Assembly (NCBI GenBank): GCA_002441425.1
Contig: DJWB01000001.1
Coordinates: 298,712 to 362,711 of the forward strand
Origin: Patescibacteria group bacterium UBA6241
GTDB lineage: Bacteria; Patescibacteriota; Minisyncoccia; Phycocordibacterales; Phycocordibacteraceae
Direction: 5' to 3'
Length of the DNA: 64,000 nucleotides
Position 1 is the stretch's first letter; each line of letters opens with the position of its first letter. The position numbers and the translations under genes were made by a program. Below the pieces are notes generated by a model. The model had not been told where the DNA came from. It made no database searches and was given only the letters and a program-made list of their open reading frames with translations. Below are positions 4,477 through 58,596 of the stretch, piece after piece.

Positions 4477-4481
4477 ACGAC

Positions 4482-5342: not shown

Positions 5343-5346
5343 ACAA

Positions 5347-28704: not shown

Positions 28705-28740
28705 AAAAGCCGCCAGGGTGAGCCGGCGGCTTTGGGATTA
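28702..28740. terminator. Bidirectional terminator
   Basis: AAAAAAGCCGCC-agggtgagcc-GGCGGCTTT between convergent genes. Confidence 0.6.
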
Positions 28741-29481: not shown

Positions 29482-29664
29482 TGCTTAGGATTTCTATCCA
29501 TAGAATAACATAAAAATCCTCTAAGTCAAAAATAGATTTACTTTATCCCCTTCCCATCTTGTTATTCCGTGCTGTTTGTAGCATACTGCAAATAACTCGC
29601 CGAAACTCCAAATTGCCCCTAAGCGTTCGGCATCAGCGAGGTTATTACGTATCTACAAGCCCTC

Positions 29665-30042
29665 ATGGCAACAAGCAAACTATATGTTGGCGGTATCCCA
29701 TACCGCACAACCGAGGACGAGCTCCGCACCGCTTTTGAAGAAGCAGGCGCAGTTGTATCCGCAAGCATTATTAGCGACCGCATGACCGGCCGTTCACGCG
29801 GCTTTGGTTTCGTGGAAATGGCAGACGAGGCTGGTGCCCAGGCTGCTATTGACCGTTGGGACGGAAAGGAATTTGACGGGCGCATGCTCTCAGTTTCTAA
29901 CGCTCGCCCACAGGGAGACCGACCTCCTCGCGAGGGTGGTTTCGGTGGTGGAAACCGCGGCGGAGGCTTTGGTGGCGGTAATCGTGGAGGAAACGGCGGC
30001 TTCGGCGGCGGTGACCGCGGTGGCTACCAGGGCGGCTACTAA
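29665..30042 (+). CDS. RRM-type RNA-binding protein with Gly/Arg-rich tail
   Basis: RNP2 'LYVGGIP' and RNP1 'RGFGFVEM', followed by GGFGGGNRGG repeats. Confidence 0.85.
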   Translation: MATSKLYVGGIPYRTTEDELRTAFEEAGAVVSASIISDRMTGRSRGFGFVEMADEAGAQAAIDRWDGKEFDGRMLSVSNARPQGDRPPREGGFGGGNRGGGFGGGNRGGNGGFGGGDRGGYQGGY

Positions 30043-33621: not shown

Positions 33622-34035
33622 TTGGCTGCTTTGGAGGACCACATGCGTACATATATCCACGTTGTTGGGCCCATAAATCCCGATGACGCAATCGCCGAGC
33701 TCTATGTGAGGAAGGAGCTGCCGGGAGACTTCCGCGTCCAGTTTATTGATCACGATTCGGACGTCACTCAGGTCACTGCTACAGTCGGCGGAATGACCCG
33801 TGAAGAACAAGACGCAAACCAGCAAGCCAAGGTAAGCGTTCTTGAACTGATCGGGCTTGGCCTCGTACAGATCATTCCCAATGCCACTGTGGTCGTAAAG
33901 CACGACCGAGGCATCTTCACCGAGTTCAGGAGCGAATACACCCCCAGGACGCCGCCGCCTAAATCCCCTGCTCTACGCACCCCGCGCGTAGAGCAGTTTC
34001 ATTTCCATACATGCTATGATTTTTGTATATGGTAG
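33622..34035 (+). CDS. Hypothetical protein (137 aa)
   Basis: ORF. No family recognised. Confidence 0.35.
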   Translation: MAALEDHMRTYIHVVGPINPDDAIAELYVRKELPGDFRVQFIDHDSDVTQVTATVGGMTREEQDANQQAKVSVLELIGLGLVQIIPNATVVVKHDRGIFTEFRSEYTPRTPPPKSPALRTPRVEQFHFHTCYDFCIW

Positions 34036-41665: not shown

Positions 41666-44600
41666 TTATGCAGCGGGTTCCTCTGCAAGACGCTCTACCT
41701 CAAGGGCACGCATCTGTGCAGCTCGTCTTTGCTGCATTCCATCAATCGCAGCGTGCTTCTTAGAGCCGTTGAATCCAGTTCCTGCTGGAATAAGGCGTCC
41801 AAGAATAACGTTCTCCTTAAGACCGCGAAGTGTATCAACCGATCCCTTTAGAGATGCGTTGATAAGAATCTTCGTAGTCTGCTCAAAGGACGCAGCTGAG
41901 AGGAATGAGCGACGAGAAAGTGCAGACTCCTTGATACCAAGCACCATTTCGCGTGCCTTTGGTGCAATCTTGCCCTCTCCCTCCATCTCCTTAACCTCTT
42001 CCTCAAACTCCCACTGCTCAACTACATCTCCAACAGAGTAATCTGAATCACCTGTCTCTGTAATCTTTGCACGTGAGAACATCTGCTTCACCACAACTTC
42101 CAAGTGCTTGCGGGATACAGATGCACCCTGTAGCTCATAGATCTTGCTGGTCTCAGCAATGATGTACTCCTGAACTGCGGCGCGGCCGGCGCGCTCAAAC
42201 AATTCATCAAGGTCTGCAGAACCATCAGAAAGGAATTGTCCCTTCACTACAGTCTGGCCCTCCTTAACAAGTGCCTGACGAGGATAGGTAAGTACGTACT
42301 CAGTGTTAGAGCCATCCTTCTTACCCTGTCCAGCCTCTGGAGTTACCACAACAACCTTGTCTCTGCCTTGCTCGCGGATCTCCGCAATCAAGCCATCAAA
42401 CTTAGATATTGCTGCGGCATTCTTTGGAGAGCGCTTCTCAAACACTTCCTCAATACGAGGAAGACCTGAGGTAATGTCTCCACCCACAGATGCAGTTCCT
42501 CCAGCGTGGAAGGTACGCATAGTGAGCTGCGTTCCTGGCTCACCAATAGCCTGTGCTGCAATGGTTCCTACTGCCTCTCCAAGATCAACTGGGAGCTGCG
42601 TAGAGAGATCCATTCCGTAACACGTGCCACAGATACCATAGCGAGTCTCACATGCCATTGGAGAACGAACAGACACGCTTGATACAGATTCGTCTGCAGC
42701 AATAGTCTGCGCATCCTCAGCTGAAAGATAGGTTCCCTTCTTAAAGCCTGCAACCTCAAGCGCAAGCGTGCGTCCGCGAATCGCTTCAGCGAAATCAATC
42801 TTGATTCCTGATGCTGATACGCGATTGATTGCAACGCCACGCTTCGTACCACAATCCTTCTCAGTGATGATTGAGTCCTGTGCTACGTCAAACAAGCGAC
42901 GAGTAAGGTATCCTGCGCGTGCAGTTCCAAGCGCGGTGTCAGTAAGACCCTTACGTGCACCGTGTGTGGACATGAAGTACTCAACTGGGTTAAGTCCCTC
43001 AGTCATTGAAGACACAATCGGCACTTCAATGGTCTCTCCCGCAGTGTTCTGGATCAGACCCTTCATACCAGCCATCTGGGTTAGGTTTCCGATAGAACCA
43101 CGAGCACCGGAGCGTACCATGTCATGCACAGATCCTGTTGGATCAAGCGCGTCTTCAACAAGCTTCTCTACCTCAGTCTTAGCACCGTGCCAGACTTCAA
43201 TAACCATGCGGCGCTTCTCTTCCTCAGAGAGAAGTCCGTCCTGGAAGTCTCCCTCAATACGCTCAACCTTAGTACGTGCTGCGGTTACAATTGCCCCCTT
43301 TCCTTCAGGAACAGACACGTCATCAAGAGACCATGAGACACCAGACTTAGTGGCGTACTCAAAGCCGAAACGCTTCACCTTGTTTACGATTCCCGGTACT
43401 GCATCAATGCCGTATTTATCAATACAGTCATTCATGATGCCAGTGATCACCTTCTTGCTGATTGCGTCATTCACGAACGGGTAGTCAGCAGGAAGCACGG
43501 TGTTGAACAAGAGACGTCCTACGGTTGTCTCAAAGATTCCGTCACCCATAACTGAGTACTTAGCCTTTCCTGCAACCGGAAGAACGTTAATTACAGCTCG
43601 TAGATCAACTGCCCCGTACTCATGTGCGAGAATCGCAGCGTTTGGAGACTGGAAGTAGTTTCCTTCTCCCTTAGATCCTGGCATAGCCTTTGTAAGCCAG
43701 TAGGTTCCAAGCACGATATCAAGCGGCTTCTGCGTCATAACAATCATTTCGCCAGAACCTGGCTTGAGAATGTTCTTGTTTGCAGACATAACGTTTGCAG
43801 CCTCCCACTGTGCTTCTTCTGAAAGCGGTACGTGGATCGCCATCTGGTCTCCGTCAAAGTCCGCGTTGAACGCAGGACATACGAGCGGGTGAAGCTGGAT
43901 CGCATCACCTTCAATAAGACGAGGACGGAATGCCTGAATACCCTGACGGTGCAGTGTTGGCGCGCGGTTAAGCAATACGTGCTTGCCCTGAATCGCCTCT
44001 TCAAGAATCTCCCATACCTCAGCAACTCCATCTTCAATCAAGCGACCCGCACCACGGATGTTGAACGCAAGCTCGCGCTGCAAGAGTCCTGCAATAACGA
44101 ATGGGCGGAAAAGCTCAAGTGCCATGTGCTTTGGAAGACCACACTCATCAAGCTCCAAATCAGGTCCCACTACAATTACTGAGCGGCCTGAGTAGTCCAC
44201 ACGCTTTCCAAGCAAGTTCTGTCGGAAGTATCCCTGCTTACCCTTAAGGTAGTCAGCGAGTGACTTAAGCGGACGGCGCTGTGATGGCGTGAGTGCTCCT
44301 GCTGACGCTCCTCCCTTGCGGATTGAGTTGTCTAGCAATGCATCAACTGCCTCCTGAAGAATACGCTTCTCGTTGCGGAGAATAACTTCAGGTGCATGAA
44401 TATCAAGCAACTTCTTAAGACGGTTGTTGCGGTTGATAACACGGCGATACAGATCGTTAACGTCTGAGGTTGCGTGTCGTCCTCCTTCAAGTGCCACCAT
44501 CGGGCGAAGTGCCGGAGGAATAACTGGGATCTTCGTGAGGAACATCCATTCAGGACGTACCTTTGATGCAATCATTGAAGAGATGAGCGAGATACGCTTT

Positions 44601-45382
44601 GCAAGCTTCTCACGCTCAGCTGCTGCTGCCTTTGGATAACGCTCCTCAAGCGTTGCCTTGAGGTCCTCAAGCTTAAGAGTGCGGAAGATATCGTAGATAG
44701 CCTCAGCTCCAATCTTTGCCTCAAAGAGAGTTCCGTAACGAACTGAGAAGCGGTGGTACTGCACTTCATCAAATACCTTTCCAACAACCACGCTCTCAAT
44801 CTCGTTCTTCGCTACAGTCATCTTCTCCTTAAGCGTGTCGCGCTCTTGGTCAGTTGCTGCTGCCTTGTGCTTAGTCTTGTACTCGTTCTCAAGCTCAGCA
44901 AGGATGCGCTTCTTCACGTCTTCAGCGACTTTCGTCACAATGTACCCCGCAAAGTACACAACCTTCTCCAAGTCTGCAGAAGGAATACCAAGAATAAGTG
45001 CCATGCGGCTTGGCATGGAGCGAAGGAACCAGATGTGCGCTACAGGTGTAACGAGCTCAATGTGGCCCATACGCTCACGACGCACAATTGAACGGGTGAT
45101 TTCAACACCACACTTGTCACACACAATACCCTTGTAACGGATACCTTTGTACTTTCCGCAGTAACACTCGTAATCACGCTCAGGACCAAAGATCTTTTCG
45201 TCAAAGAGTCCGTGCTTCTCAGAGCGCTGGGTGCGGTAGTTAATTGTCTCTGGTTTCGTGATTTCTCCACGAGACCACGACAGGATGCGCTCAGGTGAAG
45301 CGAGCGATAGGCGAAGCGCGTTCCAATCTAGGGAACGTGGTGCCATCGGACGCTTTCCGGAGGAATTCATGGGAGTTGCCAT
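41666..45382 (-). CDS. rpoC: DNA-directed RNA polymerase subunit beta'
   Basis: Zn-binding CX2C motifs, 'NADFDGDQM' catalytic loop, 1238 aa. Confidence 0.95.
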   Translation of the reverse strand: MATPMNSSGKRPMAPRSLDWNALRLSLASPERILSWSRGEITKPETINYRTQRSEKHGLFDEKIFGPERDYECYCGKYKGIRYKGIVCDKCGVEITRSIVRRERMGHIELVTPVAHIWFLRSMPSRMALILGIPSADLEKVVYFAGYIVTKVAEDVKKRILAELENEYKTKHKAAATDQERDTLKEKMTVAKNEIESVVVGKVFDEVQYHRFSVRYGTLFEAKIGAEAIYDIFRTLKLEDLKATLEERYPKAAAAEREKLAKRISLISSMIASKVRPEWMFLTKIPVIPPALRPMVALEGGRHATSDVNDLYRRVINRNNRLKKLLDIHAPEVILRNEKRILQEAVDALLDNSIRKGGASAGALTPSQRRPLKSLADYLKGKQGYFRQNLLGKRVDYSGRSVIVVGPDLELDECGLPKHMALELFRPFVIAGLLQRELAFNIRGAGRLIEDGVAEVWEILEEAIQGKHVLLNRAPTLHRQGIQAFRPRLIEGDAIQLHPLVCPAFNADFDGDQMAIHVPLSEEAQWEAANVMSANKNILKPGSGEMIVMTQKPLDIVLGTYWLTKAMPGSKGEGNYFQSPNAAILAHEYGAVDLRAVINVLPVAGKAKYSVMGDGIFETTVGRLLFNTVLPADYPFVNDAISKKVITGIMNDCIDKYGIDAVPGIVNKVKRFGFEYATKSGVSWSLDDVSVPEGKGAIVTAARTKVERIEGDFQDGLLSEEEKRRMVIEVWHGAKTEVEKLVEDALDPTGSVHDMVRSGARGSIGNLTQMAGMKGLIQNTAGETIEVPIVSSMTEGLNPVEYFMSTHGARKGLTDTALGTARAGYLTRRLFDVAQDSIITEKDCGTKRGVAINRVSASGIKIDFAEAIRGRTLALEVAGFKKGTYLSAEDAQTIAADESVSSVSVRSPMACETRYGICGTCYGMDLSTQLPVDLGEAVGTIAAQAIGEPGTQLTMRTFHAGGTASVGGDITSGLPRIEEVFEKRSPKNAAAISKFDGLIAEIREQGRDKVVVVTPEAGQGKKDGSNTEYVLTYPRQALVKEGQTVVKGQFLSDGSADLDELFERAGRAAVQEYIIAETSKIYELQGASVSRKHLEVVVKQMFSRAKITETGDSDYSVGDVVEQWEFEEEVKEMEGEGKIAPKAREMVLGIKESALSRRSFLSAASFEQTTKILINASLKGSVDTLRGLKENVILGRLIPAGTGFNGSKKHAAIDGMQQRRAAQMRALEVERLAEEPAA

Positions 45383-45397
45383 ATTAGTTCAAGAGGA

Positions 45398-48300
45398 TTA
45401 GACGTCCGATCGGCCTTCCATAGGCTCTATATCAAGAGCAAGACCGCGGATCTGATTAGTAAGTACTGCGAACGATGCAGGAGTTCCCGCATGCGATACA
45501 GGCTCACCCTTCACGATGGCATCAAAGGTCGCAGAGCGTCCCTGAATATCATCAGACTTAATGGTGAGCATCTCACGGAGTGTGTAGGCAGCTCCATATC
45601 CAAGGAGCGCCCACACTTCCATTTCTCCAAAGCGCTGTCCTCCGTTCTGTGCCTTTCCTCCAAGCGGCTGCTGGGTGATAAGGCTGTACGGACCGATTGA
45701 GCGCATGTGGATCTTGTCCTCCACCATGTGATGCAGCTTGAGCACATACATGTAGCCCACTGATATTGGCTGCGCAAAGGCTTCTCCAGTGCGGCCATCA
45801 AAGAGCTTCATCTTGCCTGAGCGATCAAACCCTGCTGCCTCAAGCTCTCCACGAATCTCGTCAGCAGTTGCTCCTGCAAACGGAGGAACAATAGCCTGAT
45901 AGTTAAGGGTGTGTGCTGCAAGACCAAGGTGAAGCTCAAGAATCTGTCCAAGGTTCATACGTGAAGGCACACCAAGTGGAGTCAAAATGATGTCCACTGG
46001 ATTTCCGTCCTTGTCGTATGGCATGTCCTCAACAGGAAGCACGCGAGAGATAACTCCCTTGTTTCCGTGACGTCCTGCGAGCTTGTCTCCCACTGATACG
46101 TTACGAACCTGCGCTACCGTTACGACAATCTTCTTGATGATGCCGCTCTCAAGCTGGTCTCCCTGCTCGCGACTGAAGACGCGTACGCCGATAACACGGC
46201 CACGCTTTCCTCCCTCCATACGAAGTGAGGTGTCTTTCACGTCTTTCGCCTTATCTCCGAAGATAGAACGAAGGAGTCGCTCTTCAGGAGTGAGCTGCGT
46301 CTCTCCCTTAGGAGTTACCTTTCCAACGAGAATGTCTCCAGGACGTACTTCAGCTCCAATGCGCACTACTCCTTCCTCATCAAGGTTCTTCAAACGAAGT
46401 TCTCCAACGTTAGGAATGTCGTGTGTGGTTACCTCAGCACCAAGCTTGGTGTCACGCACTGCACACTCAAAGTCCTCAATGTGAACGGTGGTGAACTTAG
46501 ACTCTTCAACAAGACGCTCAGACACGATAATCGCGTCCTCATAGTTAGCGCCGCTCCAGCTCATGAATGCAACACGAACGTTCTGTCCGAGTGCCATCTG
46601 TCCCTGGTCTGATGAAGAAGCGTCTCCAAGTACGTCTCCCTTCTTAACCTTGTCTCCTGTCTTTACGATAGGACGCTGCATGAATGCAGAGTTCTGGTTG
46701 GTCTGAGTAAGACCCTGAAGCTTATACTCATGATCCTTTCCACTTGCAGGAGTAACAATAATGCGACGTGCATCTGCATATGACACAGTACCCGCTTCCT
46801 CAGCAATAATGAGACGACCTGTGTTACGTGCTGCATGTCCTTCAATACCCGTAGCAACGAGCGGTGCCTCTGGAATGAGAACCGGTGTTGCCTGCTTCTG
46901 CATGTTTGAACCCATGAGTGCACGGTTCGCATCATCATGATCCACGAAAGGAATCATCGCTGTTGCAGCTGAGAACATCTGATACGTAGACGCATCAATG
47001 TAATCAATCTCATCGCGATGAACCACAGCTGGCTCTCCTCCCTTACGAGCTTCAATAGTGTCAGGGATAATTCGTCCCTTAGCGTCAACAGGAGTTGCTG
47101 CGTGCGCTATTACATGTGACTCCTCATCAAGCGCGTTGAGGTACTCAATTTCTTCAGTAACAGTTCCCTTGGTTACCTTTGCATACGGAGTTTCAATAAC
47201 ACCGAACTCGTTCGTACGCGCATGGAGTGCGAGACGAAGGATAAGACCAATGTTTGCTCCTTCAGGAGTGTGAATTGGGCAGAGACGTCCGTAGTGCGAT
47301 GGGTGCACGTCGCGCACCTCAAAGCCTGCACGCTCGCGAGTTAGACCTCCCGGTCCAAGCGCTGAAAGCGTACGCATGTTCTCAAGCTCAGCAAGAATGT
47401 TCTGCTGATCCATGAACTGTGAGAGCTGGTTAGCAGTGAAGAACTCACGCACTGAAGCAGATAGTGGACGGGGGTTCACAAATGCCATTGGCAATGAAGT
47501 CTCAGACTCAATCGTAGACATGCGGTCCTGGATGTTTCGCTTCATGCGAGACATACCAACGCGCATACGTGCCTGGAGCAATTCTCCAACGAAACGCACA
47601 CGGCGGAAGCCGAGGTGATCAATATCGTCAGGAACAGCGTTCGGGTCCTGGTTCATGCGTGCGATCTCTCCAACGATGCGAAGAAGATCGTCCAGAGTTA
47701 GTGCGCGCTGCTCAAGTGACTTCTTGTCTGTAGGAAGAGAGAAACGAGCGTTCAAGCGATGGCGTCCAACCTTTGAGAGGTCATAGCGATCAGCAGCAAA
47801 GAGTGCGTTCACATACTGCTTTGCGTTGTCTGGGGTCGCCAAATCACCGTCGCGCATGCGGCGGTGTATTTCAACATATGCGTCCTCAACACTCTGTGCG
47901 GTGTCGTGCGCGAGTGTTGCTGTAAGTGCATTGGTTCCTACTTCGTCCCCAATGAACTTCTTTAGAATGTCTTCGCGGGTTCCAGCGCCAAATACGCTAA
48001 GAAGGTGCGTAACAGGGAATTTACGTTTGCGATCAATCTTAACGAAGATTGCACCGTCTGAATCTGATTCAATCTCAATCCATACACCACGTGCAGGAAT
48101 AATCTTCGCTCCAAAGAAGTTGCGTCCCTTAGTCTCCTCCGCAACAAAGAATGCACCGAATGAACGAGCAAGCTGAGGCACGATAGCGCGCTCAACTCCA
48201 GATACGATGAAGCTACCGTGTGGCGTCATCATCGGAATATCAGAGAGGAAAATCTCCTGAGTCTTCTCTGAACCAAAGGTCTTGTTTACGAGTGTAACTG

Positions 48301-48571
48301 AAGCCTTAAGTGGAGCTTCGTAGGTACGCATGTTCTCGCGCGCTTCCTCTTCAGTTCCTTTAGGATCACCCACCTCAAATCCGTCAAAGCGGAGTTCAAA
48401 TTTCTTTCCTGAATAATCTTGGACTGGAGAGAACTCCTTAAAGAGCTCCTTGATTCCATCGGCCAAAAGCCAATTGAAAGATTCCCGCTGGTGGCCTACC
48501 AGGTCAGGAAACTCAACACGCGGAGCGCGGTATGCGCCGAATGTCTTTGGCACGAGCTTTTTTTGCTGCAT
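45398..48571 (-). CDS. rpoB: DNA-directed RNA polymerase subunit beta
   Basis: Conserved rpoB blocks ('GEMEVWAL', 'FGEMEV'). 1057 aa. Lies immediately upstream of rpoC. Confidence 0.95.
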   Translation of the reverse strand: MQQKKLVPKTFGAYRAPRVEFPDLVGHQRESFNWLLADGIKELFKEFSPVQDYSGKKFELRFDGFEVGDPKGTEEEARENMRTYEAPLKASVTLVNKTFGSEKTQEIFLSDIPMMTPHGSFIVSGVERAIVPQLARSFGAFFVAEETKGRNFFGAKIIPARGVWIEIESDSDGAIFVKIDRKRKFPVTHLLSVFGAGTREDILKKFIGDEVGTNALTATLAHDTAQSVEDAYVEIHRRMRDGDLATPDNAKQYVNALFAADRYDLSKVGRHRLNARFSLPTDKKSLEQRALTLDDLLRIVGEIARMNQDPNAVPDDIDHLGFRRVRFVGELLQARMRVGMSRMKRNIQDRMSTIESETSLPMAFVNPRPLSASVREFFTANQLSQFMDQQNILAELENMRTLSALGPGGLTRERAGFEVRDVHPSHYGRLCPIHTPEGANIGLILRLALHARTNEFGVIETPYAKVTKGTVTEEIEYLNALDEESHVIAHAATPVDAKGRIIPDTIEARKGGEPAVVHRDEIDYIDASTYQMFSAATAMIPFVDHDDANRALMGSNMQKQATPVLIPEAPLVATGIEGHAARNTGRLIIAEEAGTVSYADARRIIVTPASGKDHEYKLQGLTQTNQNSAFMQRPIVKTGDKVKKGDVLGDASSSDQGQMALGQNVRVAFMSWSGANYEDAIIVSERLVEESKFTTVHIEDFECAVRDTKLGAEVTTHDIPNVGELRLKNLDEEGVVRIGAEVRPGDILVGKVTPKGETQLTPEERLLRSIFGDKAKDVKDTSLRMEGGKRGRVIGVRVFSREQGDQLESGIIKKIVVTVAQVRNVSVGDKLAGRHGNKGVISRVLPVEDMPYDKDGNPVDIILTPLGVPSRMNLGQILELHLGLAAHTLNYQAIVPPFAGATADEIRGELEAAGFDRSGKMKLFDGRTGEAFAQPISVGYMYVLKLHHMVEDKIHMRSIGPYSLITQQPLGGKAQNGGQRFGEMEVWALLGYGAAYTLREMLTIKSDDIQGRSATFDAIVKGEPVSHAGTPASFAVLTNQIRGLALDIEPMEGRSDV

Positions 48572-48807
48572 GTCAGGTCTGTATTATCTGGCCCCAAACG
48601 CCAAACGGGCTCATGTATGCATGAGCCGCGTCCCTCGTTATGGAGACGCTGTTTTTAAAATCGCACTTGGTTTTCTCTTCCCCTCTATCCCCCGTTACTC
48701 AATCTCGTTCCCTAAATATACCGTGAAGACACAGAAGCGGTCAAGGTGGCTGTGGAAAGGAAAAAGCGACCCTCCGAAGAGAGCCGCTTGGGGATTGCGA
48801 GATGCAA

Positions 48808-49347
48808 TCAAGATGCGGTTCGCATGGTCCAGCGCGCGGGCAGCCGAACGAAGGGTCCCCGCGGAGCGGTCTTCATCGCGAGCCAGGTGAGGCCGGCGAT
48901 GACGACGCACCCCGAGGCCACACTGCGATCGGTGGCGACCAGATAGTGCACCAGGACCATGCCGATGATCGGCAGGCCGAGCGTGCGATAGATCCGGCCC
49001 ACGTCGCGCCAGCCGATGCGCTCGCAGGTGCACGCACCTTGCGCATAAATGGCGACCGCAGTTGCCAGCATCAGGCCGAGCGAAACCGCGAAGGTGAACA
49101 TCCCCATCCACAGACTTCCGTCGGTGGGCATGGACGCCACGCTCATGGTCAGGAACGAGAAGGCGTAGGGCGTCGGCCCCTTGCCCATATCCGTCCAGCT
49201 GCTGGCCGTGTCGGTCTGAAGGAAGAAGCACAGGAAGAGCGCCGCAATCGCGATGCCCGTCAGGATAATTCCGCTCAGATCGTCCTGGCCGATGAGAAGC
49301 GCAGCAAAGATGCCGCACGCTCCCAGAAACAGTGCATGTAGTCGCAT
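48808..49347 (-). CDS. Small polytopic membrane protein encoded in a ~65% GC island
   Basis: Hydrophobic six-helix ORF. Assigned start is the second Met (MRLHALF), which is preceded by GGGGGA. The +1 and +2 frames give Arg/His-rich nonsense, so this frame is the real one. Confidence 0.5.
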   Translation of the reverse strand: MRLHALFLGACGIFAALLIGQDDLSGIILTGIAIAALFLCFFLQTDTASSWTDMGKGPTPYAFSFLTMSVASMPTDGSLWMGMFTFAVSLGLMLATAVAIYAQGACTCERIGWRDVGRIYRTLGLPIIGMVLVHYLVATDRSVASGCVVIAGLTWLAMKTAPRGPFVRLPARWTMRTAS

Positions 49348-49456
49348 TCTTAGATCCCCCAGGAACAATTTTGACATCCTGGCACAACGCCAGGTTCCCT
49401 TAAACTATAACAAATATAGGGATATTGTCAATCTTAACTCTCTGTTGTGCAATGAA

Positions 49457-49482
49457 AAAGGACGGAGAGATTCCGTCCTTTA
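49457..49482 (-). terminator. Rho-independent terminator of the 49480..49830 gene
   Basis: AAAGGACGGA-gagatt-CCGTCCTTT with an A-run upstream on the plus strand, which is a U-tract on the minus strand. Confidence 0.55.
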
Positions 49483-49830
49483 GGCATAGCCGCTTGGGTC
49501 CTCGGGTCTCCCGAGATCGTCCCTGCGTATCTGCACTGGGCCTGTCTTCATTTGTCCCCTGAGGGTAAGCGAGTACTCCAGGTTCCCAGAGACACGTTCG
49601 CGGCAGGCAACCCACGTCTTGCGATTGAAGTCCTGAAGAACAAGCTGCACAGCAAGCTCAGTGGGTGTCTCAAACATATCCGCAAAGGCCGGGAGTATTC
49701 TCCGGAAAAGCGAGACAGGCTTGTGGATCCGTTTCAGATAGCGCTGCGTTCGCACCGCTTCCTGAATTTCTGAGACACTGCTCCAGGATTTCCCAGAGAG
49801 CGTGTCGTAGACTTCGTCAAATAAGGACAT
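49480..49830 (-). CDS. Hypothetical protein (116 aa)
   Basis: ORF at ~55% GC between trmD and the GC-rich membrane gene. No family recognised. Confidence 0.4.
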   Translation of the reverse strand: MSLFDEVYDTLSGKSWSSVSEIQEAVRTQRYLKRIHKPVSLFRRILPAFADMFETPTELAVQLVLQDFNRKTWVACRERVSGNLEYSLTLRGQMKTGPVQIRRDDLGRPEDPSGYA

Positions 49831-49877
49831 GGCGCCCCCCTTTCCGAGCCGATTAAACTATATAAAACGCTTTTTGA

Positions 49878-50534
49878 CTACTTCTTTCGTTTCGCTCTGA
49901 ATTCATCAATCTTGGCATGATTTCCTGTCTGTAGAACTTTAGGGACACGATAGTTCTTTCCTTCCCACTCAATATTCTCAGGACGTGTGTACACCGCAGG
50001 CGAAGCCACGCGTCTCTCCTCAACCGATTCGTCTTTCCCGAGTACTCCCGGAAGTCTACGAGTTATCGCATCAACCATCGCAAGCGCAGGAACTTCTCCT
50101 CCTGTGTACACTGCCTCACCTACGGCAAATGTCTTAACGGGTGCCATAGTCTTAAGCATCTTGAGCGCACGATCATCAATACCCTCATAACGCCCACAAA
50201 CAAATGCAACTTCGTCATAAGTGGCGAGCTGATCTGCATCTTTGTTCGTGAACTGTTTTCCAGAAGGACTGAACCAGACGATAAGCTTTGTTCCCTTTCT
50301 CCTCCCAAAGGCTTTCTTAACTGCCTTCACTACAGGGAGTGCCGTCATAACCATACCTGGACCTCCCCCGTACGGTCGCTCGTCAACTTTTCCCCATTTG
50401 TTTGTTACGAAATCTCTCGGGCTTTGATACGAGACGGAGATCTTTTTGTTTGTGCGTGCTCTGCCCAATATTGATGCAGAGAGATATGCATCACATGCTT
50501 CTGGGAAAAGTGTTATGAGATGAAATTTCAACAT
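49878..50534 (-). CDS. trmD: tRNA (guanine37-N1)-methyltransferase
   Basis: 'ITLFPE', 'DERPYGGGPGMVM', 'FVCGRYEGIDDR', 'TGGEVPALAMVDAITR', 'GNHAKIDEFR'. Confidence 0.9.
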   Translation of the reverse strand: MLKFHLITLFPEACDAYLSASILGRARTNKKISVSYQSPRDFVTNKWGKVDERPYGGGPGMVMTALPVVKAVKKAFGRRKGTKLIVWFSPSGKQFTNKDADQLATYDEVAFVCGRYEGIDDRALKMLKTMAPVKTFAVGEAVYTGGEVPALAMVDAITRRLPGVLGKDESVEERRVASPAVYTRPENIEWEGKNYRVPKVLQTGNHAKIDEFRAKRKK

Positions 50535-50561
50535 AAGCCAAAAAGCGGCAGAGATGCCGCT

Positions 50562-50867
50562 TTATTGTATGCCCTCAAGTGCGTCTTCAAGAGTTTTAGT
50601 ATCTTCTTGGAAGCGCTTTCCTCCTGAAGGCTCATTTATCTTTAAGTTCACGCGCGCGTTGTGCTTCATTCCTACCACACGCAATAGGGTGCGGAGTGCT
50701 TTAGCTATGTTGCCATCACGTCCAATTATCTTACCCATGTCCTCAGGAGCAACCGTGAGAGTAAGAAGTACTCCCATCTCGTCTACTGAACGGGTAATGA
50801 CTACTGCCTCCTGGTTATCAACCAGAGCTTTAATCGTGAAGTCTAGAAATGCGTGATCTTGTTCCAT
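50562..50867 (-). CDS. KH-domain RNA-binding protein (YlqC/UPF0109)
   Basis: 'KIIGRDGNIAKALRTLL' KH GXXG motif. Sits between rpsP and trmD. Confidence 0.75.
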   Translation of the reverse strand: MEQDHAFLDFTIKALVDNQEAVVITRSVDEMGVLLTLTVAPEDMGKIIGRDGNIAKALRTLLRVVGMKHNARVNLKINEPSGGKRFQEDTKTLEDALEGIQ

Positions 50868-50937
50868 AGGTCGTGTCGTTACTGAAATCGGAATATATGT
50901 GGAATGGTAATCAAGGCGCTCGTGCGCCTATACTGCA

Positions 50938-51399
50938 CTACGCAGCAACCTCTTCTTCCTTTGGCTCTTCTGGAGCCGCCTCTTCTACTGGAGTCTCCTC
51001 AGGAGTAGCTTCCTCTGCAGGTGCTTCTACAGCCTCAGCTGCTTTTGCAGCTTCAGCCTTTGCTGCCTCTTCTGCGGCTGCCTTTGCAGCTGCTTCTTCC
51101 TCAGCCTTCTTAGCTACGTTCTTCTCCAAGTTCTTCTTTGAGATAACAGCAACTTTCTCTCCTGAAAGAACACCGTTCTTGATAAGAAGGTTCTTTAGAG
51201 ATGGAGATACCTGAGCTCCCTTTGCAATCCATTCCTGGATGCGCTCTGCCTTGTAGGTAATCTGCTTAGTCTTTGGGTTGTAGGTACCCACAAGATCAAC
51301 GTACTTTCCGGCCTTAGGGCCAGCAGTCTTTTCAAGGACTGCCATACGGAAAGAGGCGTCGTTCTTACGACCAATGCGCTGGAATCGGATCATCAACAT
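50938..51399 (-). CDS. rpsP: 30S ribosomal protein S16 with Ala/Glu/Pro-rich C-terminal extension
   Basis: 'MLMIRFQRIGRKNDASFRMAV...GTYNP' is the S16 core. The ~60-aa AAKAEEAA... tail is low-complexity. Start assigned to the internal Met. Confidence 0.85.
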   Translation of the reverse strand: MLMIRFQRIGRKNDASFRMAVLEKTAGPKAGKYVDLVGTYNPKTKQITYKAERIQEWIAKGAQVSPSLKNLLIKNGVLSGEKVAVISKKNLEKNVAKKAEEEAAAKAAAEEAAKAEAAKAAEAVEAPAEEATPEETPVEEAAPEEPKEEEVAA

Positions 51400-51505
51400 A
51401 TGTAGGCGGAAGAGTACCAAAGGAATGCCTTGCCGTCAAAGAATTCCCTAATAGCTCAGTACCCTGCATAGCATAAACGTCTCAATCTGCTACAGTTCAG
51501 AGAAC

Positions 51506-55098: not shown

Positions 55099-57315
55099 TT
55101 ACTTCGCAACTGCCTGTGCCTCCTCAAATTTAACTGAAAGAAGCTTGGAAATACCGTCTGCACCCATAGTTACACCGTATAGGATGCTTGCCCTGCTCAT
55201 GGTTTCTCTATTGTGTGTAATAACAATGAGCTGAGACTTATGAGAGAGATTCTCAATCATGTCCCCGTACCTGCGGCTATTAGCCTCGTCCAGCGCCGCA
55301 TCAGTCTCGTCCAGAATAAGGAACGGAGGCGGGTTCACCTGACTCATAGCAAAGATAAGTGCAATTGATGTAAGTGCTCGCTCTCCTCCTGAAAGCTGCA
55401 TCAAAGACTGCACGCGCTTCTTTGGCAGATGCACTGAGATTTCAATACCTGGTTTCTGGTTTGGCTTTCGCTTCACCTCTGTCTCGTACTCATCCTCCTC
55501 GTCCTCGCTTCCAGGTTGCGCAAACTCTTCAAGCACGAGCTTTGCGCCTCCTCCTCCGAACATAAGTCCGAAGAACTCTCCAAAGGATGCGTTTACCTTT
55601 GCAAGCCCCTCTGCGAAGCTCTTCTGGAGTTCTCCATCAAGCTCTGCAATTAACGAACGAAGACCTGCAGCGGATGCGGCCAAGTCCTCAAGCTCTGTTG
55701 CAAGGAAGGACTCACGTTCTGTTGCCTCCTTGTATTCGCTGCGGACATCTTCTCCAGAGCCCCCTGCCTCTTCAACACGAATCTTAAGTCTCTCCATCGC
55801 GCGCTTGCGATCCTCCTGCACTCTGCGGTCTTCATGCGGAAGCTCAGATACAGCTTCATACGAAAGTGCATTCACACCCACAAGTGCAACTGCTTCCCTG
55901 CGATTCTGCTCAAGTTCTTCAGCGAGATAATCAAGTTGACCCAAATGTGCTGAGTGTCGTGCAAGCTCAGACTCAACCTTTGCTTTGCTCTCAGCCAAAT
56001 CTAGGAGACGGCGATTCTGCTCTCTCCCTGTTTCTTCATGCGCCATCATTCGCTCGCGTGCATTAGCAAGTTCTGAGCGTGCGCGTTCAGTTTCTTCCGT
56101 TAGCTCCGCATCCTTTCGCACCATGTCTTCTCGCTTCCCTTCAAGCTCCTTTGCCATGAGCTCCTCATCTGCCATGAAATCATCAGCGGGTCCCGCGTAT
56201 CGCTCAAAGAATGCAGCCATAGCGTTCCGCAAGCTCTGTATTGCGGCGTGAATTGCACCAGGCTCAGCGCCCTCAACAAGCGCTACTTGAGTATCTACCT
56301 CTTCCTTAAGAGCAGACAGATCCTCTCTCGGTATTTTTACGTACGGGTCTCTTGCAACCGCAACACTGCGCTTCTTTGCTTCGTTAAGTGCGCCTTCAAT
56401 ACGGCCCAAATCTCTCGCAAGTACTGAGCGCTCTGCAGTTATACGGTCTAGATTGCGCTCCGCCTGACGCACCGCTTCTGAGCGCTTCATTCCTTCGCTA
56501 TCTGTTGTTGCTCGCTCTTCAAACAAGGCAAGCTCTGCCTCAACTGCACGTAAGCGACCCGTTGCTTCTTGTGTTGCCGCTTCTGTTCTCTCCCGCTCAA
56601 TACGAATGTATGCCTCCTCAATTGCAAAATATGTTTGCGAAGCTGCTCTCAACTCCTTAGCTAGCTCCTCTGCTCGTTCAAGTTTTTCTACTTGCTTCTG
56701 CAGAAAACGAATATGTGGCGCAATCTCTCTGCGAAGAGCTTCTACCTGCGCAACATTCTCTTCAGTTCGCTCAAGTTTACGTTCTGCTTCTTGTTTCTTA
56801 AACTCAAATACTTTTAGACCAAGTGCATCCTCCAGCATCGCACGTCGCTCCCGCGGTTGCGCGGTTAGGATACGATCTGCCTCTCCTTGAGAAATAATAT
56901 GGTGTCCGGTCTCTCCAATGTTTGCTGATGCCAATAACTCCTGTACATCACGCAGACGCACCTTTGACCCATTAATTGCATATTCGCTGGCGCCATCTCT
57001 AAATACTGCACGTTCTATTGAAACTTCATCAAACTCAAGCTTTGGGAATATGCGCGCACGATTATCAAATACGATTGTTACCGCAGCGCGATTGGCACGA
57101 GGCGTTATGTTTGAACCAGACCAAATAAGATCCTCGCTGCGTTTTCCGCGCATTGATTTCATGGACTGCTCACCAAGTGCAAAACGGAACGCCTCTGCAA
57201 CGTTTGATTTTCCTGACCCGTTTGGTCCAACCACTGACGTTACAGAACTAGAAAAATCCAAGACCGTTTTCTTTGCAAACGATTTGAATCCCGCGATCTC
57301 TAGTCGCTTTAGCAT
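55099..57315 (-). CDS. SMC-like ATPase, short form without recognisable hinge
   Basis: SMC N-terminus 'LEIAGFKSFAKKTVLDF...GPNGSGKSNVAEAFRFALGEQS' and SMC C-terminus 'FFGLMFGGGGAKL', 'LSGGERALTSIALIFA', 'LILDETDAALD'. Only 738 aa, with a continuous coiled coil between the heads. Confidence 0.7.
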   Translation of the reverse strand: MLKRLEIAGFKSFAKKTVLDFSSSVTSVVGPNGSGKSNVAEAFRFALGEQSMKSMRGKRSEDLIWSGSNITPRANRAAVTIVFDNRARIFPKLEFDEVSIERAVFRDGASEYAINGSKVRLRDVQELLASANIGETGHHIISQGEADRILTAQPRERRAMLEDALGLKVFEFKKQEAERKLERTEENVAQVEALRREIAPHIRFLQKQVEKLERAEELAKELRAASQTYFAIEEAYIRIERERTEAATQEATGRLRAVEAELALFEERATTDSEGMKRSEAVRQAERNLDRITAERSVLARDLGRIEGALNEAKKRSVAVARDPYVKIPREDLSALKEEVDTQVALVEGAEPGAIHAAIQSLRNAMAAFFERYAGPADDFMADEELMAKELEGKREDMVRKDAELTEETERARSELANARERMMAHEETGREQNRRLLDLAESKAKVESELARHSAHLGQLDYLAEELEQNRREAVALVGVNALSYEAVSELPHEDRRVQEDRKRAMERLKIRVEEAGGSGEDVRSEYKEATERESFLATELEDLAASAAGLRSLIAELDGELQKSFAEGLAKVNASFGEFFGLMFGGGGAKLVLEEFAQPGSEDEEDEYETEVKRKPNQKPGIEISVHLPKKRVQSLMQLSGGERALTSIALIFAMSQVNPPPFLILDETDAALDEANSRRYGDMIENLSHKSQLIVITHNRETMSRASILYGVTMGADGISKLLSVKFEEAQAVAK

Positions 57316-57417: not shown

Positions 57418-57849
57418 TCAGGTGGAGTTTTGAAACCCACCCTGTCTGTCCACGCCAAGCCTGACGAGAAACCAGAGCAGAGCGCAGAGAACGAGCACCA
57501 GATCCAGCGTTCCGGCCATGAAGTATGCGTCTCCGAGCGACGCACGCGCAGCCATGAAGATCGTGGAGGACACGAGCGCCGTCACGAGGACTGAAATGCC
57601 GGCTCCAAGCAGGACGGGGCCGCGCTCCTCCAATGGCTTGAGGAATTCCCCGAGGACTCCGGTTCCGTACAGCAGGAACAAGAGCATGGTGGCCGGCATG
57701 GCCCACGCGATGATGAGCGACGCGTGCTCAGGCAGATTGCCTGCCATGTGCTGGATAAAGCCGAACTGGCCCGCACCCATCCCCAGAAAGAAGACAGCTC
57801 CGATGCAGAGCATCAGGAGCAACATTCCAAGAAACTTAACCGTATTCAT
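57418..57849 (-). CDS. Small polytopic membrane protein encoded in a ~63% GC island
   Basis: Start MNTVKFL with a perfect SD (GGAGGG-6nt-ATG). Four or five TM helices. Located between rnc and the smc-like gene. Confidence 0.55.
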   Translation of the reverse strand: MNTVKFLGMLLLMLCIGAVFFLGMGAGQFGFIQHMAGNLPEHASLIIAWAMPATMLLFLLYGTGVLGEFLKPLEERGPVLLGAGISVLVTALVSSTIFMAARASLGDAYFMAGTLDLVLVLCALLWFLVRLGVDRQGGFQNST

Positions 57850-57912
57850 CTTCTTCCCTCCAAGGGCACTCCACAGCGGAGTGGGATCAATCCACGTATA
57901 CAATACGCTACT

Positions 57913-58596
57913 TTATGACATTTTGTCAAGCGCTCCTTGCGCCGCAATCTGTTCTGCTTCTTGTTTGCTTGGACCTTCGCCTCGTGCAATTTCTTTGTCT
58001 CCCAAAAATACACCTATGGTAAATCGCTTGTCGTGGTCTGGACCCTCTTCTGCGAGCGTCTTGTATGTAGGAGTAATTCCCTTCTTCTCCTGAGCAACTT
58101 CCTGGAAGTGGCTCTTCGCATCCTGCCAGGTTCGCTTTGCTATAACCTCCTCAATCTTTGGATTCAGGTTCTTAGCTATGAATGCTTCTGCTGCTTCGTA
58201 TCCTTGATCCAAATAAATAGCGCCAAGAATTGCCTCAAACGCATTCGCAAGAATAATCTGGCGGGCTCTCCCCGTGTCCTTTCGCTCTCCTTTAGAGAGA
58301 AGGAGCATATCGTTAACACCAAGACGCTCTGCTTCTTCAGCCAGCGAATAGGTATTAACCAGCGCCGCTCTGTACGCAGTTAACTCTCCCTCAGGCTTGT
58401 GTGGGAAGCGGGTGTACAGGAAATGAGTAACTGCAAGCTCAAGGACAGCGTCTCCGAGAAACTCCAGACGCTCGTTATGATTCCCGGCAGTACGGTGCTC
58501 GTTTAGGTAGGACCTATGCGTAAGAGCCTCAATCAATAGATCAAGGTTCTTAAACTGGACTCCGAGGAGTGCTGCATGTGCGGCAAAATCAGACAT
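57913..58596 (-). CDS. rnc: Ribonuclease III
   Basis: 'ERLEFLGDAVLELAVT' signature and a C-terminal dsRBD. Confidence 0.9.
   Translation of the reverse strand: MSDFAAHAALLGVQFKNLDLLIEALTHRSYLNEHRTAGNHNERLEFLGDAVLELAVTHFLYTRFPHKPEGELTAYRAALVNTYSLAEEAERLGVNDMLLLSKGERKDTGRARQIILANAFEAILGAIYLDQGYEAAEAFIAKNLNPKIEEVIAKRTWQDAKSHFQEVAQEKKGITPTYKTLAEEGPDHDKRFTIGVFLGDKEIARGEGPSKQEAEQIAAQGALDKMS

What the first reader, a model, noticed from the sequence alone, without database searches (positions are those of the whole stretch)
48572..49900. High-GC (~65%) insertion encoding a polytopic membrane protein between rpoB and trmD
The rpoB/rpoC and rpsP-KH-trmD neighbourhoods are ~48-50% GC. The segment 48720..49400 jumps to ~65% GC, so all three frames are open; only the hydrophobic six-helix frame is plausible. 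A further 116-aa ORF (49480..49830, ~55% GC) with its own terminator lies beside it. This looks like foreign DNA, possibly from a high-GC partner or host organism, or else a chimeric assembly.
Basis: seen in the sequence. Interest (0 to 1): 0.6.

Follow-up and report, generated by a model that had tools for sequence, protein, structure and literature searches.

The report
Swappable membrane-protein gene beside rpoB
The GC-rich stretch next to the RNA polymerase gene of this tiny candidate-phyla bacterium is a real, separately transcribed gene for a small six-helix membrane protein, apparently brought in by recombination from GC-richer relatives, at a chromosomal slot where related species each carry a different small membrane protein.

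Summary
Window 48700-49300 reaches 60-66% GC, +4 SD over the 47.7% window mean, and holds a minus-strand ORF for a six-helix membrane protein next to a 116-aa ORF.

It is not a chimera. The same junctions occur in three independent assemblies and in related species.

It does not look like DNA from an unrelated high-GC organism. The only homologues among 1.84 billion representative proteins are 11, and all seven I located lie in this same trmD-rpoB slot of related Paceibacterota (CPR).

The slot is a one-gene replacement island:
- 31 of the 32 closest species carry a same-strand small polytopic membrane ORF there, mostly with no detectable homology to one another.
- Near-identical backgrounds carry alleles only 46% identical, or an unrelated gene, inside the same promoter-leader-terminator frame.

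The allele here has foreign codon usage (GC3 0.81 against 0.43 expected, z = 11). It lies in a trough of synonymous divergence shared with a sister species, and its substitutions run towards AT. The best reading is recent import by homologous recombination from a GC-richer pool within the clade.

Biochemical function is unknown. A second such gene lies at 57421-57903. Interest is moderate.

The parts
49878..50534 (-). trmD, the conserved left flank of the slot. Its 3' third (codons from about 126) belongs to the low-divergence tract.
   Evidence: Pfam tRNA_m1G_MT is on record for the identical gene. Against L006, pS falls from 0.6-0.85 to 0.33-0.42 in the 3' third.
49480..49830 (-). ORF116, a soluble 116-aa orphan protein and first gene of the inserted block.
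   Evidence: GC3 0.63 against 0.45 expected (z = 4.3). dN/dS is 0.14-0.21 against L005 and L006. Database homologues are only close ones, plus a 25%-identical 125-aa ORF at the same position in L085. No Pfam, NCBIfam, PADLOC or PDB match. The structure model is unusable, pLDDT 46.
49455..49481 (-). Intrinsic terminator of ORF116: AAAGGACGGA-loop-UCCGUCCUUU followed by Us.
   Evidence: Fold of -15 kcal/mol, z = -5.3. Conserved in L006 and L002, and with changes in L005.
49404..49431 (-). Promoter of the membrane gene: TTGACA, 16 nt, TG-n-TATAGT.
   Evidence: 11 of 12 consensus matches with an extended -10. Identical in L002 and L006 and near-identical in L005, where the downstream CDS is unrelated.
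49348..49400 (-). Conserved 5' leader: inverted repeat or hairpin CCTGGC-GTTGT-GCCAGG (49394..49378), then the GGGGGA Shine-Dalgarno (49360..49355).
   Evidence: The same architecture lies upstream of the slot gene in L002, L005, L006, L085-L088 and L009. Predicted folding is no better than shuffled sequence (z -0.1 to -0.8), so an RNA hairpin and a DNA operator cannot be told apart.
48808..49347 (-). CDS of the 179-aa six-helix membrane protein (an alternative upstream ATG at 49377 gives 189 aa). This is the GC-rich core.
   Evidence: GC3 0.81, z = 11.4. Best synonymous-to-nonsynonymous ratio of six frames. dN/dS 0.20. AF2 pLDDT 87.8, pTM 0.81, six TM helices. Family motifs are MPxDGS, GLPxxG, TDRS and APR. 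No known family or fold.
48757..48789 (-). Intrinsic terminator of the membrane gene: GCGGCUCUCUUCGGAGGGUCGC followed by Us.
   Evidence: -17.3 kcal/mol, z = -3.2. Identical in L002, L005 and L006. It marks the right end of the segment replaced in L005.
48715..48744 (-). rpoB promoter: TTGACC, 18 nt, TATATT.
   Evidence: The -10 region and start of the leader are conserved in L005-L008, L010 and L016.
48572..48714 (-). rpoB 5' leader, a conserved structured element. The hairpin GGCTCATG-CATA-CATGAGCC lies at 48627..48608.
   Evidence: The 59-nt core of the leader (about 48666..48608) is 100% identical among the window, L002, L005 and L006, although synonymous sites of the flanking genes are near saturation. 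In an alignment of 36 species, 6 of 7 hairpin pairs show compensatory changes. No Rfam family matches.
45398..48571 (-). rpoB, the conserved right flank. Its first 50-75 codons belong to the low-divergence tract.
   Evidence: Against L006, pS is 0.18 for codons 1-50 and 0.29 for codons 26-75, then 0.4-0.67.
48390..50160 (.). Approximate extent of the tract shared recently with the L006 lineage. Boundaries are approximate, taken from 50-codon windows.
   Evidence: Trough of synonymous divergence and a step in nucleotide identity.
57421..57903 (-). Second gene of the same kind: a small four-helix membrane ORF (about 143 aa from the ATG at 57849), GC3 0.74-0.75, between rnc and smc.
   Evidence: z = 8.2. 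The slot is empty in L006 (62-bp gap) and holds unrelated small TM ORFs in other species. It is not homologous to the 179-aa protein.

Best explanation
SHOWN. The GC-rich segment is a functional, independently transcribed gene. It has a sigma-70-type promoter, a conserved 5' leader with a Shine-Dalgarno sequence, a 179-aa CDS and an intrinsic terminator. It encodes a six-helix inner-membrane protein of an orphan family restricted to one clade.

SHOWN. The gene occupies a fixed chromosomal slot between trmD and the rpoB promoter that behaves as a miniature replacement island in a clade of Paceibacterota (Parcubacteria, CPR). Nearly every close relative has one to three small polytopic membrane-protein genes there. 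The occupants are mostly not detectably homologous. Very similar backgrounds can carry highly divergent alleles, or an unrelated gene, between the same regulatory flanks.

INFERRED, well supported. The allele in this genome reached its present background by homologous recombination. The crossovers fell in the conserved flanks: the 3' part of trmD on one side, and the terminator, rpoB promoter and leader, and 5' rpoB on the other. It came from a gene pool shared across the clade, most of whose members are GC-richer. That is why its codon usage (GC3 0.81) matches GC-rich relatives and not its own genome, and why it is now decaying towards AT.

INFERRED, weak. By the positive-inside rule the protein lies N-in, C-in, with the two most conserved motifs (MPxDGS and TDRS) on the outer face. 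The turnover pattern is the one expected of an envelope component under diversifying or frequency-dependent selection, for example from phage or from the partner cell of an episymbiont. The biochemical function is not known.
For: Real and not chimeric:
- The same arrangement is found in an ENA 608-kb contig, a JGI 89-kb contig (identical over the region) and an ENA 1.2-kb contig (92% identical), spanning both junctions.

Coding:
- GC3 periodicity, the best synonymous-to-nonsynonymous ratio of six frames, dN/dS 0.20, and a confident six-helix model.
- The antisense 179-aa ORF that one gene caller chose is interrupted in L006 and L002.

Own transcription unit.

The slot:
- trmD and rpoB are collinear in 69 species loci.
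- 31 of the 32 closest species have a same-strand TM ORF in the gap; 8 more distant ones have a gap under 300 bp.
- Occupants are mostly singletons by phmmer, and hhalign gives under 1% probability of homology for the closest relatives L005, L007, L008, L010, L012 and L016.

Family confined to the slot:
- 11 representatives among 1.84e9 proteins.
- All seven located members lie between trmD and rpoB, as do the members in L006, L013, L009, L023, L022 and L021.

Exchange decoupled from the genetic background:
- Window against L006: flanking genes have dS 0.5-2.9, but ORF116 has 0.25 and the membrane gene 0.26. pS declines gradually into 3' trmD and 5' rpoB.
- L087 against L088: flanks have dS 0.29-0.34 and dN 0.005, but the membrane gene has dS 1.8 and dN 0.49. 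Divergence starts at the ATG and ends at the stop codon.
- L005 (rpoB 98% identical) has an unrelated TM gene between the same promoter-leader and terminator.

Foreign composition:
- z = 11.4 against host codon usage, whereas other membrane proteins in the window have normal GC3 of 0.40-0.53.
- RSCU correlation is -0.02 with its own rpoB and 0.6-0.72 with GC-rich clade members.
- Polarised substitutions on the L006 and L002 branches are 28 GC-to-AT against 6 AT-to-GC. My one-sided binomial gives about 1e-4.

Shared pool:
- Slot-gene GC3 stays at about 0.7-0.85 while host GC3 ranges from 0.45 to 0.92 (slope 0.24, r = 0.31).

No mobile-element signature:
- No flanking direct repeats, no tRNA, and no phage, plasmid or viral match.
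Against: - No donor allele in a GC-rich genome has been sampled. The nearest relatives outside the window/L002/L006 group are only 40-44% identical.
- The low dS of the cassette could partly reflect constraint on synonymous sites rather than recency. The non-coding parts of the tract are regulatory and would be conserved in any case.
- Slot genes exceed their host's GC3 in most low- and mid-GC hosts, which an intrinsic GC-raising force would also produce.
- The substitution counts are small, and they assume the tree (window,(L006,L002)).
- Nothing here bears directly on the protein's function. Topology and the selective driver are inference only.
- ORFs in the related loci were called mechanically, with a simple hydropathy rule for TM segments.
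Confidence: 0.7

Rival explanations
1. The gene is a long-standing resident, inherited vertically in this slot. Its high GC3 is maintained actively, either by GC-biased gene conversion at a recombination hot spot or by selection on codons or mRNA. On this view the GC does not come from a GC-rich donor.
For: Alleles only 41-44% identical still have GC3 0.76-0.84 in hosts with GC3 0.5-0.57. Slot genes exceed host GC3 in most low- and mid-GC hosts. Membrane-protein identity broadly tracks flank identity across species. The locus clearly recombines, which is a precondition for gBGC.
Against: Substitutions on the L006 and L002 branches are strongly AT-ward (28 against 6), the opposite of an ongoing GC drive. 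Other membrane proteins of the same genome, small ones included, have normal GC3. In GC-rich hosts slot genes lie slightly below the host, as regression to a pool mean predicts. Flank and cassette divergence are decoupled in both directions.
Confidence: 0.2
2. One reading: DNA acquired from an unrelated high-GC organism, for example the host or partner cell of this episymbiont.
For: Codon usage is typical of a GC-rich genome (CTG, GCG/GCC, GGC, ACC, ATC). The gene is an orphan with no family assignment.
Against: An exhaustive HMMER search of 1.84e9 representatives found only 11 relatives. All seven I located are in the trmD-rpoB slot of related Paceibacterota. GC-rich members of the same clade exist and match its codon usage. 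There is no hit in phages, plasmids or viral contigs.
Confidence: 0.05
3. An assembly chimera that joins a high-GC organism's reads into a CPR contig.
For: There is an abrupt GC step confined to about 600 bp. One gene caller mis-called the region on the opposite strand.
Against: Identical junctions in an independent JGI assembly; a 92%-identical version in a third sample spanning ORF116, the membrane gene and the rpoB start; and a 91% (protein identity) version in a GTDB species genome. The promoter, leader and terminator around the CDS are shared with relatives.
Confidence: 0.02
4. The GC-rich stretch is not this protein-coding gene but a structured RNA, or the antisense 179-aa ORF.
For: All frames are open. 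The ENA annotation chose the antisense ORF.
Against: No Rfam family or tRNA. The sense frame has GC3 0.79 and the best synonymous-to-nonsynonymous ratio. The antisense ORF carries stops in L006 and L002. The sense protein is conserved down to about 20-30% identity, with motifs and a confident fold.
Confidence: 0.02

Closest known systems
Replacement flexible genomic islands (Lopez-Perez, Martin-Cuadrado and Rodriguez-Valera 2014, PMC4033161)
   Same: Same chromosomal position between conserved genes in all relatives. The occupants belong to the same broad class but are different, often non-homologous, genes. Exchange is by homologous recombination in the flanks, and it leaves anomalies in synonymous divergence at the boundaries. 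The products are envelope-associated.
   Different: The scale is a single 0.5-0.7 kb gene (at most three) rather than multi-gene clusters of many kb. The cargo is small polytopic membrane proteins of unknown function rather than glycosylation or surface-polysaccharide genes. Replacement can be bounded by the gene's own promoter-leader and terminator. Exchange appears to cross species with very different GC. A link to phage is untested.
Classical compositionally atypical horizontally acquired island, such as the low-GC DpnII-type restriction-modification island in this same window (3520-6093)
   Same: Codon usage deviates strongly from the host. Presence and absence vary among relatives.
   Different: There are no mobility genes, tRNA target or direct repeats. 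The gene family is confined to one slot in one clade rather than being promiscuous.
Integron gene cassettes (comparison from general knowledge)
   Same: Short, single-ORF, interchangeable units at a fixed site.
   Different: I saw no attC-like recombination sites. The conserved flanks are an ordinary promoter-leader and terminator, and each unit carries its own promoter. An integrase was not searched for. The divergence gradient into trmD and rpoB points to homologous, not site-specific, recombination.
Polymorphic small membrane proteins such as bacteriocin or effector immunity proteins and phage exclusion proteins (from general knowledge; a lead only)
   Same: Small, polytopic, highly diverse, horizontally exchanged orphan proteins.
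   Different: There is no adjacent toxin or effector gene, the neighbours being trmD, ORF116 and rpoB. There is no PADLOC or PHROG match. Function is untested.

Membership tests
Replacement flexible genomic island | Present at the same position, between the same conserved genes, in all or most related genomes | tested here: met
   trmD and rpoB are collinear in 69 species loci. 31 of the 32 closest have a TM ORF in the gap.
Replacement flexible genomic island | Different, often non-homologous, genes of a similar functional class in different strains or species | tested here: met
   Occupants are mostly singletons by phmmer and score under 1% probability by hhalign. L005 against the window, and L087 against L088, differ inside near-identical backgrounds. 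'Class' here means only 'small polytopic membrane protein'.
Replacement flexible genomic island | Exchange by homologous recombination, visible as anomalous (mostly synonymous) divergence at or around the boundaries | tested here: met
   There is a dS trough over the cassette, with gradients into 3' trmD and 5' rpoB. The inverse pattern is seen in L087 against L088.
Replacement flexible genomic island | Multi-gene cluster encoding exposed cell-surface structures that are phage targets | tested here: not met
   The slot holds one to three genes of 0.3-0.7 kb each. There are no glycosyltransferase or other known domains. Phage involvement cannot be tested here.
Mobile genomic island or transposable element | Integrase or transposase, tRNA or other att site, flanking direct or inverted repeats | tested here: not met
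   There is no tRNA in the window. Only short chance repeats flank the block. The neighbours are trmD and rpoB. No phage, plasmid or viral match.
Any curated protein family (Pfam, NCBIfam, PADLOC, PHROGs) or solved fold | Significant profile or structural match for the 179-aa protein | tested here: not met
Structured RNA family (Rfam) | Covariance-model match at the gathering score | tested here: not met
   No matches in the whole window.
Winged-helix or HTH regulator (for ORF116; a lead from reading the sequence) | HTH fold or a family match | tested here: inconclusive
   No Pfam, NCBIfam or PDB match. The AF2 model is unusable, pLDDT 45.8, from a three-sequence alignment.

The most novel reading that the evidence does not exclude
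Paceibacterota of this clade may keep several fixed 'expression sockets' between essential genes, each a conserved promoter, 5' leader and terminator. At least two exist: trmD-rpoB and rnc-smc. Interchangeable small polytopic membrane-protein genes from a GC-rich pool spanning the clade would be swapped in and out of these sockets. This would be a dedicated way of diversifying the envelope of episymbiotic cells, for example against phage or for partner specificity. The conserved inverted repeat in the leader, and the adjacent ORF116, might then be part of a common control.
Probability: 0.15. Interest if true: 0.7.

Novelty: new variant of a known kind. Interest (0 to 1): 0.4.

Why it matters
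- It removes a suspected misassembly or contamination flag from a 608-kb CPR contig.
- It shows that automatic gene callers put the gene on the wrong strand in GC3-rich orphan genes of this kind. That hides the family from protein databases.
- It points to a reproducible, easily located hot spot in which candidate-phyla bacteria exchange small membrane proteins across species whose GC content differs widely. A second such hot spot lies in the same window. These organisms have very small genomes and are thought to live attached to other cells, so rapidly swapped envelope proteins are good candidates for determinants of partner or phage specificity.
- Because the slot is flanked by universal genes, it could be used as a marker locus for strain-level population studies.
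- The finding itself is a modest extension of known island biology, not a new mechanism.

Tried and rejected
- Rfam (gathering threshold) and ARAGORN on the whole window found nothing, so there is no support for an RNA-gene reading.
- Pfam, NCBIfam, PADLOC and PHROGs gave nothing significant for the 179-aa protein, ORF116, the second TM gene or the alternative L005 gene.
- An exact-sequence look-up of the 189-aa ORF failed. The ENA caller had annotated the antisense ORF, and JGI had used the second ATG.
- The two metagenome-contig scans, one with protein patterns and one with the terminator sequence, found nothing. The family alignment was too variable to use as a query there.
- The viral contig, phage and plasmid searches were negative.
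- A third word-index protein search, using the family alignment, added only two proteins.
- The ORF116 model was too poor to use for a fold search.
- Leader RNA folds were no better than shuffled sequence, so I make no RNA-structure claim for the membrane-gene leader.
- I considered that high GC3 might be a general property of membrane proteins. I rejected this because other TM proteins of the window have GC3 of 0.40-0.53.
- Literature searches found no earlier description of this slot. The Gracilibacteria 'hypervariable gene' paper concerns a repeat protein and is unrelated.
- The first hhalign script timed out and was re-run successfully.
Full report
OBSERVATION

The GC anomaly is real. In 200-nt windows, GC rises from 0.47-0.52 to 0.60-0.665 between 48700 and 49300 and then drops to 0.465. 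The interval 48720-49400 is 0.618 GC, +4.1 SD over the 600-nt window distribution of the whole 64 kb (mean 0.477, sd 0.035). It is the strongest peak in the window.

Several overlapping ORFs are open on both strands. All real genes here run on the minus strand, in this order:
- rpsP 51420..50938
- a KH-domain gene 50867..50562
- trmD 50534..49878
- ORF116 49830..49480
- the hydrophobic ORF 49377..48808
- rpoB 48571..45398
- rpoC

The hydrophobic frame has GC3 0.79 against 0.42-0.49 in its neighbours; ORF116 has 0.63. No Rfam family and no tRNA lie in the window.

IS IT A GENE, AND WHICH ONE?

Three lines of evidence identify the sense hydrophobic frame as coding.
- Against two diverged alleles (L006 and L002), it has the highest ratio of synonymous to nonsynonymous codon changes of all six frames: 26:17 and 20:21.
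- The antisense 179-aa ORF that the ENA gene caller annotated is broken by stops in those alleles.
- dN/dS against L006 is 0.20.

The probable start is the second ATG (49347, giving 179 aa). A GGGGGA Shine-Dalgarno lies 7 nt upstream, distant homologues begin there, and the JGI caller chose it.

The gene is an autonomous transcription unit:
- TTGACA-16-TGnTATAGT promoter at 49431..49404 (11 of 12 consensus matches)
- a leader of about 50 nt
- a terminator hairpin at 48789..48764 followed by Us

After it come the rpoB promoter at 48744..48715 and the rpoB leader. ORF116 has its own terminator.

AlphaFold2, run on a 12-sequence family alignment, gives a confident six-helix bundle (pLDDT 87.8, pTM 0.81). 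By the positive-inside rule (my inference), the protein is N-in, C-in. This places the two most conserved motifs, MPxDGS and TDRS, in outside loops.

No curated family, defence-system model, phage family, solved structure or fold matches.

NOT A CHIMERA

The window is part of a 608-kb ENA contig. The ORF116 to rpoB-start region is 100% identical in an 89-kb contig from an unrelated JGI metagenome. A 1.2-kb contig from a third sample spans the 3' end of ORF116, the membrane gene and the rpoB start at 92% identity. A GTDB species genome (L006) carries the pair at 91% protein identity.

WHOSE GENOME, AND WHAT DO RELATIVES HAVE?

The rpoB N-terminus retrieves 80 species-level loci, all Patescibacteria / Paceibacterota (Parcubacteria). 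trmD and rpoB are collinear in 69 of them.
- The gap ranges from about 200 bp to 7.5 kb.
- Among the 32 closest species (rpoB N-terminus at least 83% identical), 31 have one or more same-strand ORFs with hydrophobic segments in the gap, typically 100-220 aa with 3-6 helices.
- Eight more distant species have an essentially empty gap that holds only the rpoB promoter and leader.

The occupants are hypervariable. By phmmer at E < 1e-4 most are singletons. hhalign gives under 1% probability that the occupants in the closest relatives (L005, L007, L008, L010, L012, L016) are related to the family found here.

That family is tiny, with 11 representatives among 1.84 billion proteins. All seven members I could place lie between trmD and rpoB. 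So do the copies in L006, L013, L009, L023, L022 and L021. One of them (L085) also has a distant ORF116 homologue in the same position.

EXCHANGE DECOUPLED FROM THE BACKGROUND

1. Window against L006. Core genes around the slot have dS of 0.5-2.9 (trmD 1.2, rpoB 0.65). ORF116 and the membrane gene have 0.25 and 0.26. In 50-codon windows, pS is 0.6-0.85 in the first two-thirds of trmD, 0.33-0.42 in its last third, 0.08-0.25 across the two inserted genes and 0.18-0.29 in the first 75 codons of rpoB. Beyond that it returns to 0.4-0.67. That is a recombination tract of about 1.7 kb, shared after the species diverged.

2. L087 against L088. The flanks are almost identical (dS 0.29-0.34, dN about 0.005; rpoB and trmD 99% at the protein level). 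The membrane proteins are only 46% identical (dS 1.8, dN 0.49). Divergence begins at the ATG and ends at the stop codon, while the promoter, leader, terminator and rpoB leader stay nearly identical (about 95% or more).

3. L005 (rpoB 98% identical to the window). It keeps ORF116 and the same promoter, leader hairpin, Shine-Dalgarno and terminator, but has an unrelated roughly 200-aa membrane protein between them.

No direct repeats, tRNA, phage, plasmid or viral similarity accompany the block. The mechanism indicated is therefore homologous recombination through conserved flanks, not a mobile element.

WHY IS IT GC-RICH?

Given its amino acids and the host's codon usage, the expected GC3 is 0.425. 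The observed value is 0.81 (z = 11.4). Leu is 13/22 CTG against 8% in the host.

This is not a membrane-protein effect. Other TM proteins of the window have GC3 of 0.40-0.53.

Its RSCU is uncorrelated with its own rpoB (r = -0.02) but correlates at r = 0.6-0.72 with GC-rich members of the same clade. Most relatives are in fact GC-richer, with locus GC of 0.50-0.65.

Across species, slot-gene GC3 stays around 0.7-0.85 while host GC3 runs from 0.45 to 0.92 (slope 0.24, r = 0.31). It sits well above low-GC hosts and slightly below GC-rich ones, as expected for genes drawn from a shared pool and only partly adjusted to the host.

On the L006 and L002 branches, substitutions in the gene are 28 GC-to-AT against 6 AT-to-GC (my one-sided binomial is about 1e-4). 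This indicates decay towards the host composition rather than an active GC drive.

The main rival is that GC is held high by biased gene conversion or by selection at this recombining locus. It is not excluded, because alleles that diverged long ago (41-44% identity) are still GC3-rich in mid-GC hosts. I give it about 0.2.

COMPARISON WITH WHAT IS KNOWN

The behaviour matches the 'replacement flexible genomic islands' of Lopez-Perez et al. (PMC4033161): a fixed position, different genes of a similar class, and exchange by homologous recombination with a synonymous-divergence signature.

It differs in several respects.
- It is miniature: a single gene in its own promoter-terminator frame.
- Its cargo is orphan polytopic membrane proteins.
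- It is exchanged among species of very different GC.

It fails the tests for a mobile island or any known protein family. Literature searches found no earlier description of this slot.

VERDICT

It is not a misassembly, and there is no sign of an unrelated high-GC donor.

Function is unknown. My best guess, at low confidence, is an envelope component under diversifying selection.

This is a new variant of a known kind, of moderate interest.

Noticed in passing
window 57421-57903 (-): A second small membrane ORF rich in GC3: four hydrophobic helices, about 143 aa from the ATG at 57849, GC3 0.74-0.75 against 0.44 expected (z = 8.2). It lies between rnc (57916-58596) and an SMC-like gene (55102-57315). 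The sister species L006 has only a 62-bp gap there, and other species carry unrelated small TM ORFs. It is not homologous to the 179-aa protein. The ENA caller again annotated the antisense strand.
   Followed up: partly
window 48572-48714 (-), inside the finding's coordinates: The rpoB 5' leader is a conserved non-coding element. Its 59-nt core (about 48666..48608) is 100% identical in four lineages whose flanking synonymous sites are near saturation. The hairpin at 48627..48608 shows compensatory changes in 6 of 7 pairs across 36 species. A second possible stem, GCGTCTC...GAGGGACGC, lies just upstream. No Rfam family matches. It may be an undescribed cis-regulatory leader of rpoBC in this clade.
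   Followed up: partly
window 49378-49394 (-), and equivalents in L002, L005, L006, L009, L085-L088: The inverted repeat CCTGGC-loop-GCCAGG, immediately downstream of the -10 box of the slot gene, is conserved even where the downstream CDS is unrelated. The stem sequence does not vary, and predicted folds are no better than shuffles. It could be a stabilising 5' hairpin or an operator, perhaps for ORF116.
   Followed up: partly
window 3520-6093 (+): A low-GC island (GC 0.37-0.40, GC3 0.31-0.37) encoding a DpnII-type restriction-modification system: a D12-class N6-adenine methyltransferase, the DpnII endonuclease and a second N6/N4 methyltransferase. This is a conventional foreign island of the opposite compositional sign.
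   Followed up: partly
L001 11194-11733 and 2442-3017; window 48802-49341 (+) and about 57518-58093 (+): In the ENA record, the gene caller annotated the antisense ORFs over both GC3-rich membrane genes. The JGI record has them on the sense strand. Miscalls of this kind probably hide these families from protein databases and make them look rarer than they are.
   Followed up: yes
window 41666-51420 and L005-L092: In this clade rpoBC is not preceded by rplKAJL. It follows rpsP, a KH-domain gene and trmD, and has its own promoter. This gene order is conserved in 69 species loci.
   Followed up: partly
L085 1649-2411: One relative has a Fic-domain gene and a 59-aa ORF inserted between the KH-domain gene and trmD. 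L089 has an extra 145-aa ORF at the same place. This suggests that further intergenic positions in this operon neighbourhood accept insertions.
   Followed up: no
window 14034-15068 (-), 28732-29508 (+), 33622-34035 (+), 29665-30042 (+): Other ORFs have mildly raised GC or GC3 (0.59-0.60): a ribonucleotide reductase small subunit, two ORFs without Pfam matches, and an RRM-domain protein (GC 0.60). I did not examine them for foreign origin.
   Followed up: no
window 49853-49867 and 49400-49414: The -10 region of the membrane-gene promoter (TATAGTTTAA) recurs just upstream of ORF116. The rpoB promoter also continues TATATTTAGGGAAC, against TATAGTTTAAGGGAAC for the membrane gene. This may be a common promoter and start-site motif in this genome.
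   Followed up: no
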